Part shown: positions 1-15,523 of the stretch, piece after piece
Layout: each line of letters opens with the position of its first letter
How positions within the stretch are numbered: the stretch's first letter is position 1
Origin: a virus
IMG/VR virus record: IMGVR_UViG_3300045988_164547
Coordinates: 1 to 33,165 of that record
DNA length: 33,165 bases
Direction: 5' to 3' (one strand)
Made by a program: the position numbers and the translations under genes
Notes under the pieces: model-generated
The model's input: the letters and a program-made list of their open reading frames with translations, nothing else
Told to the model about the DNA's origin: nothing
The model's database searches: none

Positions 1-119
1 AAACAAAATGTTAGGACATCTGATTATATTTGGCGAGAACGCTTTTGGGAACTAAAGAATGTTTCTTCGGTCAATAGTGGAGACTATGGTCTTAGAAAAG
101 CGATTTCGCAAATTCAGAG
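1..119. repeat. Left copy of the exact 119-bp terminal direct repeat
   Basis: Bases 1-119 (aaacaaaatgttaggacatc...gcaaattcagag) are identical by eye to 33047-33165. Confidence 0.95.
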
Positions 120-279
120 TAACCCAGGCGGAGTTATACTTAAAATTTCAAACGAGGTAAAACTAACCGATCTTGAAAAACAACTTAAATCACGAGCAAA
201 AAGGAGCGACATCAGCGGTTTCGACATTCTTATTGCAAAAGAAAATAAAGTCATAAAGATAATTAGATATAAAAAATGA
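1..279 (+). CDS. 3' part of the MuF / minor capsid gene (C-terminal extension domain). Continues from 31694..33046 across the circular junction.
   Basis: Frame 1 is open from base 1 (KQNVRTSDYIWRERFWELKNV...IIRYKK) to TGA at 277-279. It is in frame with the ORF that runs off the right end. Confidence 0.85.
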   Translation, partial: KQNVRTSDYIWRERFWELKNVSSVNSGDYGLRKAISQIQSNPGGVILKISNEVKLTDLEKQLKSRAKRSDISGFDILIAKENKVIKIIRYKK

Positions 280-305
280 GAACACAGGCCAAGTCCGTGT
301 TCTCG
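271..305 (-). terminator. Intrinsic terminator oriented for the minus strand
   Basis: A 10-bp stem is followed by TTTTTT only on the minus strand. On the plus strand the same hairpin is followed by GGGGTAAAGG. Confidence 0.6.
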
Positions 306-347
306 GGGTAAAGGGCTAAATTTCCAGGCTAATCAATTCCCCTAACC
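271..347 (-). ncRNA. Candidate ~77-nt small RNA, convergent with and antisense to the 3' UTR of the MuF gene
   Basis: Minus strand has a TTGACT-17 nt-TATAAT promoter (382-354). About 40 nt of non-coding sequence with no ATG follows. It ends in a 10-bp hairpin GAGAACACGG/CCUGUGUUCUC (305-279) and a U6 tract. Confidence 0.5.
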
Positions 348-353
348 AATTAT

Positions 354-382
354 ATTATATGCCGTTTTCGCAGAAAAGTCAA
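354..382 (-). promoter_or_regulatory. Near-consensus sigma-A/sigma-70 promoter on the minus strand
   Basis: Reverse complement reads TTGACT (382-377), a 17-nt spacer, then TATAAT (359-354). A second overlapping TATAAT lies at 354-349. Confidence 0.55.
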
Positions 383-394
383 TCAACTTTATTG

Positions 395-425
395 AGCATC
401 ACGCTTATGGCAAGGTGCTTTTTTA
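395..425 (+). terminator. Possible intrinsic terminator of the portal-MuF transcript
   Basis: Interrupted stem AGCATC..GC / GC..GGTGCT followed by TTTTTT. Confidence 0.35.
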
Positions 426-525
426 ATGCTGTTTTTCAGCTTTTTAGCTGTTAAATATAAAATCACGGGACAAAACCCGTTAATCAAATGAGATAACTGA
501 CTCATCAGTTAAAAAGGAGTTTATT

Positions 526-1086
526 ATGCAAGATTTAATTGATATCTTGAAAGAAGAAGGTATCGAAGTACCGGAAGAGAAGAAAGACGGTTTAAGGCAG
601 AAGCACAGTAAGAATTACAAGGCTGTAGCTGAGTTTGAGAGAAAAGTAAACTCTCTCACAGACCAGCTCACAACTGCAAACGCAACCATTACAGATTTAA
701 AGAGCAAAACAACCGATGTTGACGCCCTTAATCAGCGAATCAAAGATTACGAGAAAGCCGACCAGGACAGAAAAGATGCCGAAGATAAGGCGAAGAAAAC
801 TCAACAGCTTAAAACTCGCTTTGACGCGCTGAAAGGAGACCGTACTTACCTCAACGAAGGTACTGAAAGTTGGATGTTCTCTGAGTTCCAGAAGGCTGTT
901 GCAGACCAAAACAATGCAAGTAAAAGCGATGCGGAAATATATGAGAACATTACCAAAGATAAAAACATATTCACACCGAAAAACGAAAGGTTCAAGAATC
1001 CGTCCGCAGGTAACTCACATCATCAAACGAGCGATGAAGCTTACCTTGCCGAGTATTACAAGAACAACCCGTTTTTCAAGAAATAA
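526..1086 (+). CDS. Scaffolding protein (Phage_GP20-like)
   Basis: 186 aa, highly charged coiled coil, AAAGGAG RBS, immediately upstream of the capsid gene. Confidence 0.7.
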   Translation: MQDLIDILKEEGIEVPEEKKDGLRQKHSKNYKAVAEFERKVNSLTDQLTTANATITDLKSKTTDVDALNQRIKDYEKADQDRKDAEDKAKKTQQLKTRFDALKGDRTYLNEGTESWMFSEFQKAVADQNNASKSDAEIYENITKDKNIFTPKNERFKNPSAGNSHHQTSDEAYLAEYYKNNPFFKK

Positions 1087-1108
1087 TTAAAAAGGAGAAT
1101 TACTTACA

Positions 1109-1975
1109 ATGAGTATTATTTATGGCGCACTCAATGTTGACGAAAGGTATTCCTCAATCGTTGAGCCTAATCTTTATTATGACAGAGTTTTCGTACCCGG
1201 TGTAACATTCACCGATAAATACGAAGAAGGTCCTGCCGGAGCAATCTATGTTCACAAACTTACAGGTTCGGCAGCAGAACCCGGCACACCCGGCAGAGAC
1301 TTTGCGGACGAAGCAAGCCAGGATACGCTTATACCGATACTTCTGAACAACAACTTCCAGAAGTCACGAAAAATATACGGCGTACAGTCTAATGCTGTTT
1401 CATTTGCTGTTGCAAATGAACAACTTGCAGGAGTTATGAACGATATAGGCGAAGGCTGGGGGCAGTCCGGTAATGCTTGTCTTGTTCAGGAAGGCACCGC
1501 TTCTGCCGCAACTACAGCGATAACAAAGTCAAATGCGGTCGCTGCCCTTATAGCCGCTCGCAAAGAGCTTTCCGAAAAGAAAGCAAAAGCAAATACAGTA
1601 CTTTGCTCCCCTGCATATTATGCAGCGCTGCTTGAAGCTGCAGGCGATAAATTTACGCCCGTTCTTAACGACAATGTTGCGGCAACCGGCGCTATCGGCA
1701 GATACCTCGGTTTTAATATCATCGAGGATAACGGTTTATCGGCAGCCAGCGCAAAATATTACGACAAAACCGGTACTCTTAAGACCGTTGCATTTGATAA
1801 GGTTGATTTCATCATGTATAACTTTGAAGCGCTCTCAATCGTTTCAAACCTTGAGGCCTTCCGTCTTGTTGACAGCGAAAACTTTGTCGGCTCAAAGGCA
1901 CAGGGCGAAATGAACACAGGGTACACGGTAACAAATGCCGATGCAGCCCTCGTTCGTAAGCACGCAGCAGCTTAA
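1109..1975 (+). CDS. Major capsid protein
   Basis: 288 aa, strong RBS. Position after the scaffold gene and composition are typical of small HK97-fold capsid proteins. Confidence 0.75.
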   Translation: MSIIYGALNVDERYSSIVEPNLYYDRVFVPGVTFTDKYEEGPAGAIYVHKLTGSAAEPGTPGRDFADEASQDTLIPILLNNNFQKSRKIYGVQSNAVSFAVANEQLAGVMNDIGEGWGQSGNACLVQEGTASAATTAITKSNAVAALIAARKELSEKKAKANTVLCSPAYYAALLEAAGDKFTPVLNDNVAATGAIGRYLGFNIIEDNGLSAASAKYYDKTGTLKTVAFDKVDFIMYNFEALSIVSNLEAFRLVDSENFVGSKAQGEMNTGYTVTNADAALVRKHAAA

Positions 1976-3681: not shown

Positions 3682-4217
3682 CAGATACACAGTTAAAAAC
3701 ATTTCTCGATACTTTCAAGCATAGCGGAACGGGAGATGTCAAGCGTGAATTGTTTATTATCTTCGGTAGAAAAGGTAATACGGGCGATTTTATTCCGCTC
3801 GGCTACAAGCAAGAAAGCGCCGCAATCGAGAACAATTACAATGAAAATTCTGTAAGAGACGTACTCGGGAATGTGTATAACGATATCATCTCAAAGGATG
3901 AGCAGATATCAATGAGCGAATACCATAACAATCCGAGCGCCTCGCCGTTCCTCGATACAGCGTGGATGTATACTCTTGCGGGGCTCGAAAGCGAGCTTGA
4001 AGACTATGAACTTCTTATGGTTAGCGCTTGGCTGGTTAACGAAAGCGGCGAGTTCTTCGCAAGAAACGTATCCGGTGTTCGCCTCAAGCTCGACAATATG
4101 GGCGGACAGAGCTATACAATGGCCGATGTTACATTCTCGGGTATTTCAAGAGGAAAATTCGGTACCGTATCGAGTTTGGCCAAGCCTGAGTTCAAGGAAA
4201 ATACACCTACGGCGTAA
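3678..4217 (+). CDS. Major tail protein
   Basis: 179 aa, ATGA-coupled start, located just upstream of the chaperone pair and tape measure. Confidence 0.6.
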   Translation: MTDTQLKTFLDTFKHSGTGDVKRELFIIFGRKGNTGDFIPLGYKQESAAIENNYNENSVRDVLGNVYNDIISKDEQISMSEYHNNPSASPFLDTAWMYTLAGLESELEDYELLMVSAWLVNESGEFFARNVSGVRLKLDNMGGQSYTMADVTFSGISRGKFGTVSSLAKPEFKENTPTA

Positions 4218-14471: not shown

Positions 14472-14557
14472 ACGGCGTGAGTTCGTACAGTGTCATTTTC
14501 GTACTCTTGTTTTTAATGCAGCCCCCTGTTCCAGCAGGGGGTGTTTTTTTATTTTTT
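14462..14557 (+). ncRNA. Candidate ~95-nt transcript: extended -10 promoter plus strong intrinsic terminator, antisense to the int leader
   Basis: TGcTATAAT at 14447-14455. Terminator stem CCCCCTG/CAGGGGG at 14522-14541, followed by T7-A-T7. No SD-preceded ORF. Confidence 0.35.
14522..14557 (+). terminator. Intrinsic terminator (plus-strand orientation)
   Basis: GC-rich 7-bp stem, 6-nt loop and a long T tract. The T tract overlaps the 3' end of the minus-strand gene 14549..15523. Confidence 0.65.
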
Positions 14558-15523
14558 TATCCTTTTAAACCCCATTATTTGCATATATTTCTTTAGCGAC
14601 ACCGGCTTTCCCGTGCATATATGCTTATATTCATAATATTTTCTTTGCATTTTTTCATAGTCGATATCGTTTTGCTTTTTAATAATATAATGTTCATACT
14701 CTTCTTTGTCTTTTTCCGTTCTATCATCAACGAACGGTCTATTACTATATAAAACCGGGTCAACTTCAACTAATTCGGCTCTATCCGTTGAATACTTTGA
14801 CATAGAAAAACATCCTTCAATGACTGGAAAAAATACGTGCCTACACCCTTTGTGAAAGCCGCCATATTTCAATACGCTATCCGGAAGTTTAGGATATTTT
14901 TCACTTTTACCGGAAATTGAATATACTCTCCCCTGCAACTTTGCACACTCTGAACAAGTTGCGAAGTGAACGGAACATTCAACTAAATCTGTATTAAATA
15001 ATTTTGCTCTTTTCAATATATCATTAGTTTGTTCTTGTTCTGTAACATCATTCTTATTATCGATTTGTGCCTTTAATTTGTCTCCATCGTCAAGCCATCC
15101 GTCTTTCCATAATTTAATAACCAACCTCATAAAATCTTTTCTTGTATAACCTGCAGGTGAAGCTTTCATCATATTGTATGTAATTGGCACAAGAATTTTC
15201 GATATCTTAATATTTTCCAGTTTACATACATACATCAAAAGAACATAAGATAAATCTTCTGTAACTTTTGGCAGTCCGCCATTTTGAAATGCGAATTTTG
15301 GCACTACAAGCGTTTTACAACTTTCAACATCATTCAAATTATAGACCTTACCGTCAGAAATTATAATATTTGCAGTATAATATATTTTTCTGTGTTCATA
15401 TAAGGAATTCTTACTAAAGCCTGAAACAGCATAAATAACGCCATTTTTATATATTGGGATATTTTTTACTTCAAATTGTTTTTTGGCTTTTATAATGGCT
15501 TTTAATTCCGCAAATGAGAGCAT
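14549..15523 (-). CDS. MuF / minor-capsid-2-family domain protein encoded in the lysogeny module (accessory, function unknown)
   Basis: 324 aa with a GAGGTGG RBS. Motif SVHFATCSECAKLQGRVYS...YPKLP...GFHKGCRHVFFP matches the MuF-family core (H..C..C..QG.vy...CRH.f.P). Visibly AT-richer than its neighbours. Confidence 0.6.
   Translation of the reverse strand: MLSFAELKAIIKAKKQFEVKNIPIYKNGVIYAVSGFSKNSLYEHRKIYYTANIIISDGKVYNLNDVESCKTLVVPKFAFQNGGLPKVTEDLSYVLLMYVCKLENIKISKILVPITYNMMKASPAGYTRKDFMRLVIKLWKDGWLDDGDKLKAQIDNKNDVTEQEQTNDILKRAKLFNTDLVECSVHFATCSECAKLQGRVYSISGKSEKYPKLPDSVLKYGGFHKGCRHVFFPVIEGCFSMSKYSTDRAELVEVDPVLYSNRPFVDDRTEKDKEEYEHYIIKKQNDIDYEKMQRKYYEYKHICTGKPVSLKKYMQIMGFKRIKK

What the first reader, a model, noticed from the sequence alone, without database searches (positions are those of the whole stretch)
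271..382. Consensus-promoter small RNA unit convergent with the MuF-toxin gene, in a type-I-antitoxin-like 3'-overlap layout
Seen on the minus strand:
- Promoter TTGACT-17 nt-TATAAT (382-354).
- A purine start near 347.
- About 77 nt with no ATG and no SD.
- A C-rich single-stranded-looking segment (CCCUUUACCCC).
- A 10-bp GC-containing hairpin followed by U6 (305-271), whose U tract abuts the MuF stop codon.

The hairpin has a T-run only in the minus orientation. The likely plus-strand terminator of the MuF mRNA lies further on, at 395-425, so the MuF 3' UTR would be fully complementary to this RNA.

Established knowledge: prophage-borne type I toxin-antitoxin pairs of Bacillus (txpA/RatA, bsrG/SR4) use exactly this convergent 3'-overlapping arrangement.

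Inference: the RNA may restrain MuF-toxin expression in the lysogen, standing in for the missing immunity gene. Alternatively it may act in trans through its C-rich motif.
Basis: partly seen in the sequence, partly recalled or inferred. Interest (0 to 1): 0.62.

Follow-up and report, generated by a model that had tools for sequence, protein, structure and literature searches.

The report
Small RNA gene partnering phage toxin
Just behind a phage head-protein gene that ends in a nuclease toxin domain lies a separately promoted gene for a 77-base folded RNA on the opposite strand. It sits where an immunity gene normally lies and accompanies this toxin domain in dozens of distant phages, so it is probably an RNA antidote.

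Summary
On the minus strand, TTGACT-17-TATAAT (382-354) is followed by a 77-nt non-coding RNA (347-271) ending in a 10-bp hairpin and U6. One correction: the C-rich segment is not single-stranded. It pairs with the G-rich 5' end, and this helix covaries.

The window is a complete temperate Ruminococcus phage, not a Bacillus one. The "MuF" gene is a Phage_min_cap2 protein. Its last 155 residues form a PD-(D/E)xK nuclease domain closest to the tRNase CdiA-CT of B. pseudomallei 1026b.

Close relatives differ only in this cassette:
- no tail;
- an ADP-ribosyltransferase tail plus 54-aa ORFs;
- this tail plus the RNA gene.

Across 65 distinct phage and metagenome loci carrying this tail (35-100% identity), 55% have a near-consensus convergent promoter, against 2-6% in controls. 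I extracted 43 distinct RNA units. The downstream protein genes fall into 25 unrelated clusters. In the reverse direction, 28 of 34 matches to an RNA core pattern abut such a tail.

The link between RNA and toxin is well supported. The mechanism is not shown. I favour direct neutralisation of the nuclease; antisense action is the main rival. There is no Rfam match, and I found no paper describing it. This scan has noted the same pairing before on other DNA.

The parts
31682..33165 (+). Minor capsid protein 2 / MuF-type gene, first part. The record is circular with a 119-bp end repeat, so the gene runs 31682..33046 and then 1..279, giving 547 aa. The shared N-terminal part ends near residue 392. 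The toxin tail begins at about 32858.
   Evidence: Pfam Phage_min_cap2, residues 8-368, E = 1.9e-53. End repeat. Full length read from the contiguous relative L003. Breakpoint found by comparing P0006, P0007 and P0008.
1..279 (+). Last 92 codons and stop of the same gene. This is the C-terminal half of the 155-aa PD-(D/E)xK nuclease tail, with the motifs SDYIW...WELK and NPGG, ending RYKK*.
   Evidence: Alignment A3: invariant E41, D71, K82 with E/D80. AlphaFold model pLDDT 92.9. Best PDB match 4g6v_A, CdiA-CT of B. pseudomallei 1026b. 652 cluster representatives have this domain, in every listed hit but one (P0122) at the C-terminus.
354..382 (-). Promoter of the small RNA: -35 TTGACT (382-377), 17-nt spacer, -10 TATAAT (359-354).
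   Evidence: Kept in variants L005, L033, L041, L047, L045 and others. A match of 10/12 or better occurs on this strand in 55% of 65 distinct loci, against 2-6% in controls.
271..347 (-). Small RNA of 77 nt. P1 pairs 347-339 with 315-307. P2 pairs 334-331 with 322-319, with loop AGCCUGGA at 330-323. The terminator hairpin pairs 304-295 with 287-278. U6 is at 276-271.
   Evidence: Fold. Covariance model R1 scores 80.6 bits, a single copy in the window. In 10 distinct variants 94% of cells are paired and 13 of 20 pairs show double changes, reached by 0 of 500 shuffles. No Rfam or tRNA match.
394..425 (+). Plus-strand intrinsic terminator closing the portal-MuF transcript. Its left arm belongs to the variable cassette. 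Its right arm and T-run begin the leader shared by all relatives; the cassette boundary is near 406.
   Evidence: Fold of -9.8 kcal/mol. Equivalent hairpins of -17.6 and -13.6 kcal/mol in L029 and L034, with different left arms.
426..525 (+). Conserved leader of the scaffold gene. It is not part of the toxin cassette.
   Evidence: Nearly identical in relatives with other tails or with none.

Best explanation
The stretch is a gene for a ~77-nt structured RNA that belongs to the C-terminal toxin cassette of the phage's minor-capsid (MuF-type) protein. It takes the place of the immunity gene.

Shown:
- It has its own near-consensus sigma-70 promoter, a covarying fold and an intrinsic terminator on the strand opposite the toxin gene.
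- It is linked to this nuclease domain, in both directions, across distant phages.
- No protein neighbour is shared among those loci.

Inferred:
- The RNA is made constitutively, including in the lysogen, and acts as the antidote of the CdiA-CT-like PD-(D/E)xK nuclease.
- The mechanism I favour is direct. The conserved G-rich/C-rich helix with its fixed G.U wobble is bound by the nuclease domain as an inhibitor or pseudo-substrate, as in type III toxin-antitoxin pairs. This would protect the lysogen from leaky toxin and from toxin delivered by incoming related virions.
- Perfect complementarity to the mRNA 3' end may add a second, antisense layer.
- During late lytic transcription the opposing mRNA would titrate the RNA.
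For: Cassette swap in close relatives (scaffold protein 82-99% identical):
- No tail, with the terminator immediately after the gene (L034).
- ADPrib_exo_Tox tail plus one or two 54-aa ORFs (L029-L032).
- This tail plus the RNA unit (window, L003-5, L033).

Association from tail to RNA:
- 160 loci were fetched through the tail, giving 65 distinct gaps.
- The best minus-strand promoter averages 9.6 of 12 matches. It reaches 10 or more in 55% of gaps, against 3% on the plus strand, 4-6% in coding controls and 2% in shuffles.
- From these gaps I extracted 43 distinct RNA units of 41-112 nt.

Association from RNA to tail:
- 34 exact matches to an RNA core pattern were found in 2.9 million viral contigs.
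- 27 of them lie 4-56 nt from the C-end of a convergent tail gene, plus one more judged by eye.

Strand:
- The minus-sense fold is more stable in 39 of 43 units (-30.0 against -23.6 kcal/mol, p = 3e-8).
- G.U cells outnumber A.C cells 16 to 0 in P1, and 50 to 2 in the majority-type helix.
- The terminal Lys codons are AAA 91 to AAG 6, against 584 to 243 in the rest of the tail.

Helix sequence:
- The sequence CCUYYGCC/GGYRGGGG is conserved, with U.G at position 3 in 22 of 25 helices, while the outer stems and loops vary freely.
- An antisense RNA would not need this.

Other points:
- Downstream protein genes fall into 25 unrelated clusters.
- The tail has intact catalytic residues and a tRNase-like fold.
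- There is a precedent for a prophage RNA neutralising a protein toxin by direct binding: AbiF/RCd22 (PMC12373285).
Against: - There is no expression or binding evidence.
- The convergent, stop-codon-overlapping layout is invariant. That fits an antisense role at least as well as a direct one, or it may simply be inherited from one ancestral cassette.
- The tail has not been shown to be toxic.
- The window's own tail does not reach the Pfam CdiA_C threshold. Only some family members do.
- The window's RNA type is the rarer one (10 distinct variants). My reading that its helix corresponds to the majority-type helix, as a circular permutation, is an inference.
- Model R1 does not detect the majority type.
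- No host tRNA acceptor stem resembles the helix.
- The loci are phylogenetically related, so the counts are not independent events.
Confidence: 0.4

Rival explanations
1. Pure cis-antisense regulator, as in type I systems or lambda OOP. The RNA pairs with the 3' end of the MuF-toxin mRNA. The duplex is cut (for example by RNase III), or translation termination is disturbed. This keeps toxin synthesis down in the lysogen. The RNA never touches the protein.
For: - The convergent orientation, with the U-tract overlapping the last codons and the stop, is kept in essentially every locus.
- In the window the mRNA must run through the RNA gene to reach its terminator at 394-425.
- The promoter is independent of late transcription.
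- Known type I pairs with 3' overlap exist in prophage-like elements of Firmicutes (established knowledge).
Against: - A cis-antisense RNA is complementary whatever its sequence. Yet one helix sequence with a fixed G.U is conserved among cassettes whose proteins share only 35-45% identity.
- Only 9 nt of coding sequence are covered.
- The toxin is a 155-aa nuclease domain of a virion protein, not a small membrane peptide.
- Tandem duplicated RNA units (L052, L065) suggest a dosage effect.
Confidence: 0.3
2. The RNA is linked to the tail but is not an antidote. It could be a cofactor, guide, chaperone or co-packaged partner that the nuclease domain needs in order to act or to be loaded into the capsid.
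For: - The same two-way association applies.
- The conserved helix suggests protein recognition.
- Solved relatives of the tail bind structured RNA, namely tRNA (PMC9086364).
Against: - The RNA occupies the slot of immunity genes in polymorphic toxin cassettes (PMC5576092).
- Its constitutive promoter is opposed by late transcription, so its level should fall exactly when the protein is made.
- I know of no precedent.
Confidence: 0.1
3. The unit is independent of the toxin. It could be a lysogen-expressed trans-acting small RNA ('moron') aimed at host or phage mRNAs. Or it could be a convergent unit that merely insulates or interferes with late transcription.
For: - It has the promoter-gene-terminator layout typical of morons.
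- It lies between two transcription units.
Against: - It follows the tail and not the neighbourhood. Relatives with the same flanking genes but another tail, or none, lack it.
- It accompanies the tail in front of scaffold, terminase, lipoprotein and other genes.
- Its best predicted pairing with phage start sites is no better than for shuffled RNA (14 of 100 shuffles as good).
- Its own terminator stops it after 77 nt, so it cannot interfere far.
Confidence: 0.08
4. A chance promoter-like site next to an ordinary hairpin, with no product.
For: AT-rich phage DNA throws up promoter-like sites: 16 were found in the first 3 kb.
Against: - Conservation and covariation across distant loci.
- Strand asymmetry and the codon bias of the A-run.
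- Controls at 2-6% against 55%.
Confidence: 0.02

Closest known systems
MuF polymorphic toxins of temperate phages (Jamet et al. 2017, PMC5576092), including those with the cd13442 / CdiA-CT(1026b)-type tail
   Same: - A head-morphogenesis (MuF / minor capsid 2) N-terminal part.
- A C-terminal toxin domain swapped between close relatives.
- The partner sits immediately downstream.
- Temperate phage context.
   Different: That paper describes small ORFs as presumed immunity genes (89% of cases) and, in the passages read here, mentions no RNA partner. Here the slot holds a convergent RNA gene, and no protein neighbour is shared.
CdiA-CT(II)/CdiI of Burkholderia pseudomallei 1026b (PDB 4G6V; Pfam PF18451)
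   Same: - Best structural match of the tail (probability 1.0, TM 0.51/0.58).
- PD-(D/E)xK catalytic residues are conserved.
- Family members reach the Pfam cut-off.
   Different: - That toxin is delivered by contact-dependent inhibition and neutralised by a protein, CdiI, that binds the active site.
- Its substrate is known: the acceptor stem of tRNA-Ala.
- Here the carrier is a virion protein, the partner is an RNA and the substrate is unknown.
Type I toxin-antitoxin pairs with convergent 3' overlap (txpA/RatA, bsrG/SR4 in B. subtilis); nuclease-toxin type I pairs (RalR/RalA)
   Same: - An independently promoted small RNA, convergent with the 3' end of a toxin gene and complementary to it.
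- Prophage setting.
   Different: - Those toxins are mostly short membrane peptides.
- No conserved RNA helix is shared across distant members.
- Whether pairing matters here is untested.
Type III toxin-antitoxin systems (ToxIN and relatives) and AbiF(Cd)/RCd22 of a C. difficile prophage (PMC12373285)
   Same: - A structured RNA neutralises a protein nuclease-type toxin by direct binding.
- Conserved RNA motifs.
- Tandem copies occur in some relatives here (L052, L065).
   Different: - In those systems the RNA gene lies upstream on the same strand.
- ToxI-type RNAs are repeat arrays processed by the toxin.
- Here there is a single unit, downstream and convergent.
Lambda OOP RNA (short cis-antisense RNA against the 3' end of cII)
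   Same: A phage-encoded short RNA with its own promoter and terminator, convergent with the 3' end of a gene and overlapping it.
   Different: - OOP covers much more coding sequence and targets a regulator, not a toxin.
- It does not travel as a cassette with a protein domain.

Membership tests
MuF polymorphic toxin | N-terminal MuF / minor-capsid-2 head-morphogenesis domain in the packaging module | tested here: met
   Phage_min_cap2 E = 1.9e-53, between the portal and scaffold genes.
MuF polymorphic toxin | Variable C-terminal toxin domain exchanged between close relatives | tested here: met
   Relatives have no tail, an ADPrib_exo_Tox tail or this PD-(D/E)xK tail, after an identical breakpoint at ...RENVPK.
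MuF polymorphic toxin | Small immunity ORF immediately downstream | tested here: not met
   There is no conserved ORF between 280 and 412. Downstream genes of 66 loci fall into 25 unrelated clusters. The ADPrib-type relatives do carry 54-aa ORFs.
CdiA-CT 1026b-like PD-(D/E)xK nuclease (PF18451) | Profile match above the curated cut-off | tested here: inconclusive
   The window's tail gives no hit. The close relative P0006 scores 14.6 bits. Family member P0071 scores 27.5 bits against a cut-off of 26.6.
CdiA-CT 1026b-like PD-(D/E)xK nuclease (PF18451) | Fold and catalytic E...D...(D/E)xK residues | tested here: met
   Top Foldseek hit 4g6v_A, followed by Hef, SfsA and Mus81. E41, D71 and K82 are invariant, and position 80 is E or D.
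CdiA-CT 1026b-like PD-(D/E)xK nuclease (PF18451) | tRNase activity and toxicity | not testable with these tools
   Known only for the Burkholderia proteins (PMC9086364).
Type I toxin-antitoxin | Antitoxin RNA complementary to the toxin mRNA | tested here: met
   The RNA gene lies inside the stretch between the stop codon and the plus-strand terminator and overlaps the ORF by 9 nt. Actual pairing is untested.
Type I toxin-antitoxin | Small, usually hydrophobic toxin peptide | tested here: not met
   The toxin candidate is a 155-aa soluble nuclease domain of a 547-aa virion protein.
Type III toxin-antitoxin | RNA antitoxin gene upstream of the toxin on the same strand, as tandem repeats processed by the toxin | tested here: not met
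   A single unit, downstream and convergent. Tandem pairs occur only in L052 and L065.
Type III toxin-antitoxin | Direct RNA-protein neutralisation | not testable with these tools
   Inferred only, from the conserved helix sequence.
Any Rfam family (including tRNA mimics skipping-rope, DUF2693-FD, salivarius-1) | Covariance-model match | tested here: not met
   - Window 1-1200: nothing near a gathering score.
- 14 related loci: no match at gathering scores.
- Two related loci: nothing at E <= 1.

The most novel reading that the evidence does not exclude
Polymorphic toxins can have RNA immunity. A small RNA whose conserved G.U-bearing helix mimics the nuclease's RNA substrate plugs the CdiA-CT-like domain. 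Lysogens would then be immune, through an RNA, to a toxin injected with the DNA of related phages. The two RNA architectures (the window type and the majority type) would be circular permutations of one recognition helix.
Probability: 0.3. Interest if true: 0.85.

Novelty: new variant of a known kind. Interest (0 to 1): 0.7.

Why it matters
Polymorphic toxin cassettes are thought to pair each toxin tail with a protein immunity gene. Here a widespread phage-borne nuclease tail (652 cluster representatives) has no shared protein partner. Instead it has a dedicated, conserved small RNA gene.

If the RNA is the antidote, three things follow:
- RNA antitoxins extend to virion-delivered toxins.
- A class of MuF toxins that appears to lack an immunity gene is explained.
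- There is a simple, testable pair for asking how an RNA blocks a tRNase-type nuclease, and how lysogens resist toxins injected by related phages.

Annotation pipelines would also miss these partners altogether.

Tried and rejected
- Known RNA families: no Rfam match for the window or related loci. No tRNA or tmRNA.
- Public phage records: no match to the first 1200 bases by blastn.
- DNA search of 301 genomes of the host's family: only the Ruminococcus MAG holds the unit. The other hits matched only the AT-rich promoter.
- Model R1 in 151 genomes of that family: only the same MAG. Three weak hits were plain terminators with no tail gene nearby.
- Trans targets: the best duplex with 37 phage start regions is no better than for shuffled RNA.
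- tRNA acceptor-stem mimicry: among 33 tRNAs read from 30 of the 43 tRNA loci of the host MAG, none resembles P1 (best 8 of 14 positions). The majority-type helix is nearest to the initiator tRNA stem (10 of 14), but in a different host. This gives no support.
- Small protein idea: the 31-aa and 21-aa plus-strand ORFs and the 38-aa minus-strand ORF in 359-505 have no SD. They lie mostly in the leader shared with relatives that have no tail.
- Frameshift or readthrough at A6-UGA followed by a hairpin: considered, but the extended peptides are short and not conserved.
A narrower alignment worked.
- My first parse of the ARAGORN output was faulty and was redone.

Full report
**What the window is.**
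The window is a complete viral record of 33,165 bp whose last 119 bases repeat the first, so the genome is circular or permuted. It encodes:
- terminase, portal, a Phage_min_cap2 protein, scaffold and capsid on the plus strand;
- a serine recombinase and an HTH repressor on the minus strand.

It is therefore a temperate phage. A 99% identical scaffold gene lies in a 171-kb contig of a Ruminococcus sp. MAG.

The "MuF" gene runs 31682..33046 and then 1..279, giving 547 aa. Residues 8-368 are Phage_min_cap2 (E = 1.9e-53).

**The observation.**
On the minus strand I find:
- TTGACT-17-TATAAT at 382-354, matching 11 of 12 positions, the best site in the first 3 kb;
- G347, 7 nt after the -10 hexamer;
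- a 10-bp hairpin at 304-278, then U6 at 276-271.

The U-tract is the complement of the last two Lys codons, and the hairpin starts inside the TGA stop. The RNA folds at -25 kcal/mol, z = -2.66. It has no Rfam or tRNA match.

The C-rich segment is not single-stranded. It pairs with the G-rich 5' end to form helix P1. P1 is followed by a short stem (P2) with an 8-nt loop, and then by the terminator.

The plus-strand terminator proposed at 395-425 is real. It is a hairpin at 394-420 of -9.8 kcal/mol, followed by a T-run. Its right arm and T-run are shared by all relatives, while the left arm changes in step with it.

**A natural swap experiment.**
Phages whose scaffold protein is 82-99% identical share the minor-capsid gene up to ...IHRDYVRENVPK. 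After that point they differ:
- L034 stops there, and the terminator follows at once.
- L029-L032 carry an ADPrib_exo_Tox tail followed by one or two 54-aa ORFs. They have no strong minus-strand promoter.
- The window, L003-L005, the MAG and L033 carry a 155-aa tail followed by the RNA unit.

The RNA gene is therefore part of the tail cassette, in the slot where polymorphic toxin cassettes keep their immunity gene (PMC5576092).

Among the window-type relatives the promoter is kept, while the stems show compensatory changes:
- U-A to C-G in P2 of L005;
- an almost completely re-written terminator stem in L033.

**What the tail is.**
A full HMMER scan found 652 cluster representatives with this domain. 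In every listed hit but one (P0122) it is at the C-terminus. In the ten full-length members scanned with Pfam it follows Phage_min_cap2 or Phage_Mu_F.

The alignment keeps E41, D71, (E/D)80-x-K82 and other positions, which is the PD-(D/E)xK signature. A confident model (pLDDT 92.9) matches best the CdiA-CT toxin of B. pseudomallei 1026b (4g6v_A, probability 1.0), then the Hef, SfsA and Mus81 nucleases.

Some family members pass the Pfam CdiA_C cut-off. The window's own tail does not.

The Burkholderia toxin cuts tRNA-Ala in the acceptor stem and is blocked by a protein that binds its active site (PMC9086364). Jamet et al. list this tail type (cd13442) among MuF toxins.

**The RNA follows the tail.**
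I fetched 80 viral and 80 metagenome loci through the tail alone, at 35-100% identity. In nearly all of them the minus strand just after the stop codon carries a near-consensus promoter and a short RNA that ends in a stem and a U-run abutting the stop.

Over 65 distinct gaps, the best promoter match reaches 10 of 12 or more in:
- 55% on the minus strand;
- 3% on the plus strand;
- 4-6% in coding controls;
- 2% in shuffles.

From these gaps I extracted 43 distinct RNA units of 41-112 nt. They come in two body types.

*Window type (10 distinct variants).* It has P1 (GGUUAGGGG/CCYUUACC), P2 and a separate terminator. On a model-fitted alignment:
- 94% of cells pair, against 80% in shuffles;
- 13 of 20 pairs show double changes (reached by 0 of 500 shuffles);
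- slid controls pair at 41-58%.

*Majority type.* This is a single long hairpin: outer stem, AA, CCUYYGCC, loop, GGYRGGGG, GG, outer stem, U-run. The outer stem changes freely, while the inner helix is nearly constant.

Read from its loop end, the majority helix resembles the window's P1 read from its 5' end: GG, a variable step, a G.U, then GG. I take this as a possible circular permutation, but it is an inference. Model R1 does not cross-detect the majority type.

**The reverse test.**
An exact pattern for the majority-type core gave 34 matches in 2.9 million viral contigs. Of these, 27 lie 4-56 nt from the C-end of a convergent tail gene, and one more does by eye. The remaining six are GC-rich coding sequence, four of them identical.

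**Which strand.**
- The minus-sense fold is more stable in 39 of 43 units (p = 3e-8).
- G.U cells outnumber A.C cells 16 to 0 in P1 and 50 to 2 in the majority helix. The second count was selected on pairing and so is biased.
- The terminal Lys codons are AAA 91 to AAG 6, against 584 to 243 elsewhere in the tail. This suggests the A-run is kept for the antisense U-tract.

**No shared protein partner.**
The first downstream plus-strand genes of 66 loci fall into 25 unrelated clusters, including terminase-like, scaffold, lipoprotein and others.

**Mechanism.**
The RNA-tail linkage is shown. The function is inferred. Two readings fit the data.

*Antisense action.* It fits the invariant convergent overlap and the terminator lying beyond the RNA gene.

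*Direct action on the protein.* It fits three things:
- the conserved helix sequence with a fixed wobble, which a cis-antisense RNA would not need;
- the tandem copies in L052 and L065;
- the RNA-binding nature of the tail's solved relatives.

It also has a precedent in AbiF/RCd22.

I favour direct neutralisation (0.4) over antisense-only action (0.3). The two may coexist. I found no trans target and no tRNA look-alike.

**Known or new.**
There is no Rfam family for it. The passages of Jamet et al. 2017 that I read mention no RNA partner, and my other literature searches turned up none. A 2026 preprint on bacterial tRNA mimics concerns other RNA families.

This scan has, however, reported the same kind of pairing on other DNA: CdiA-CT-like or other phage nuclease tails facing a small structured RNA. 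A later check of one such case was sceptical about the functional claim. That is why I ran the promoter, strand and codon controls here.

This window adds two things: a clean cassette-swap series and a second RNA architecture.

Noticed in passing
window 14549-15523 (-): A 324-aa ORF lies beside the serine recombinase and the repressor. It matches only the core of Phage_min_cap2 (residues 171-251) and PHROG 'minor head protein' families. It is a second MuF-core-like protein, in the lysogeny module, and has no PADLOC match.
   Followed up: partly
window 420-452 and 31323-31355: A 33-nt inverted match (85%) links the leader just after the plus-strand terminator to the 3' part of the portal gene. 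On a single plus-strand transcript the two arms would bracket the whole MuF gene. It could be chance in AT-rich DNA.
   Followed up: no
window 426-525: The leader before the scaffold gene is nearly identical in all relatives, whatever their tail. It holds hairpins at 464-481 and 497-516, the second just before the SD, and a weak promoter-like TTTTCA-17-TATAAA.
   Followed up: no
L029:3685-3849; L032:3503-3667 and 3683-3847: Relatives with an ADP-ribosyltransferase tail carry 54-aa ORFs with the motif YSSPRWNDKQLPV (PHROG 8857, function unknown). The ORF is duplicated in L032. These are candidate immunity proteins.
   Followed up: partly
L052:1660-1755; L065:1633-1724; L130 downstream of the tail: Two phages carry the majority-type RNA unit as a tandem pair. 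L130 has a second tail fragment after the first, like an orphan toxin cassette.
   Followed up: no
window 271-276 and the same place in 65 loci: The tail ends ...RYKK* in most members, and the two Lys codons are almost always AAA. The last codons therefore double as the template of the antisense RNA's U-tract.
   Followed up: yes
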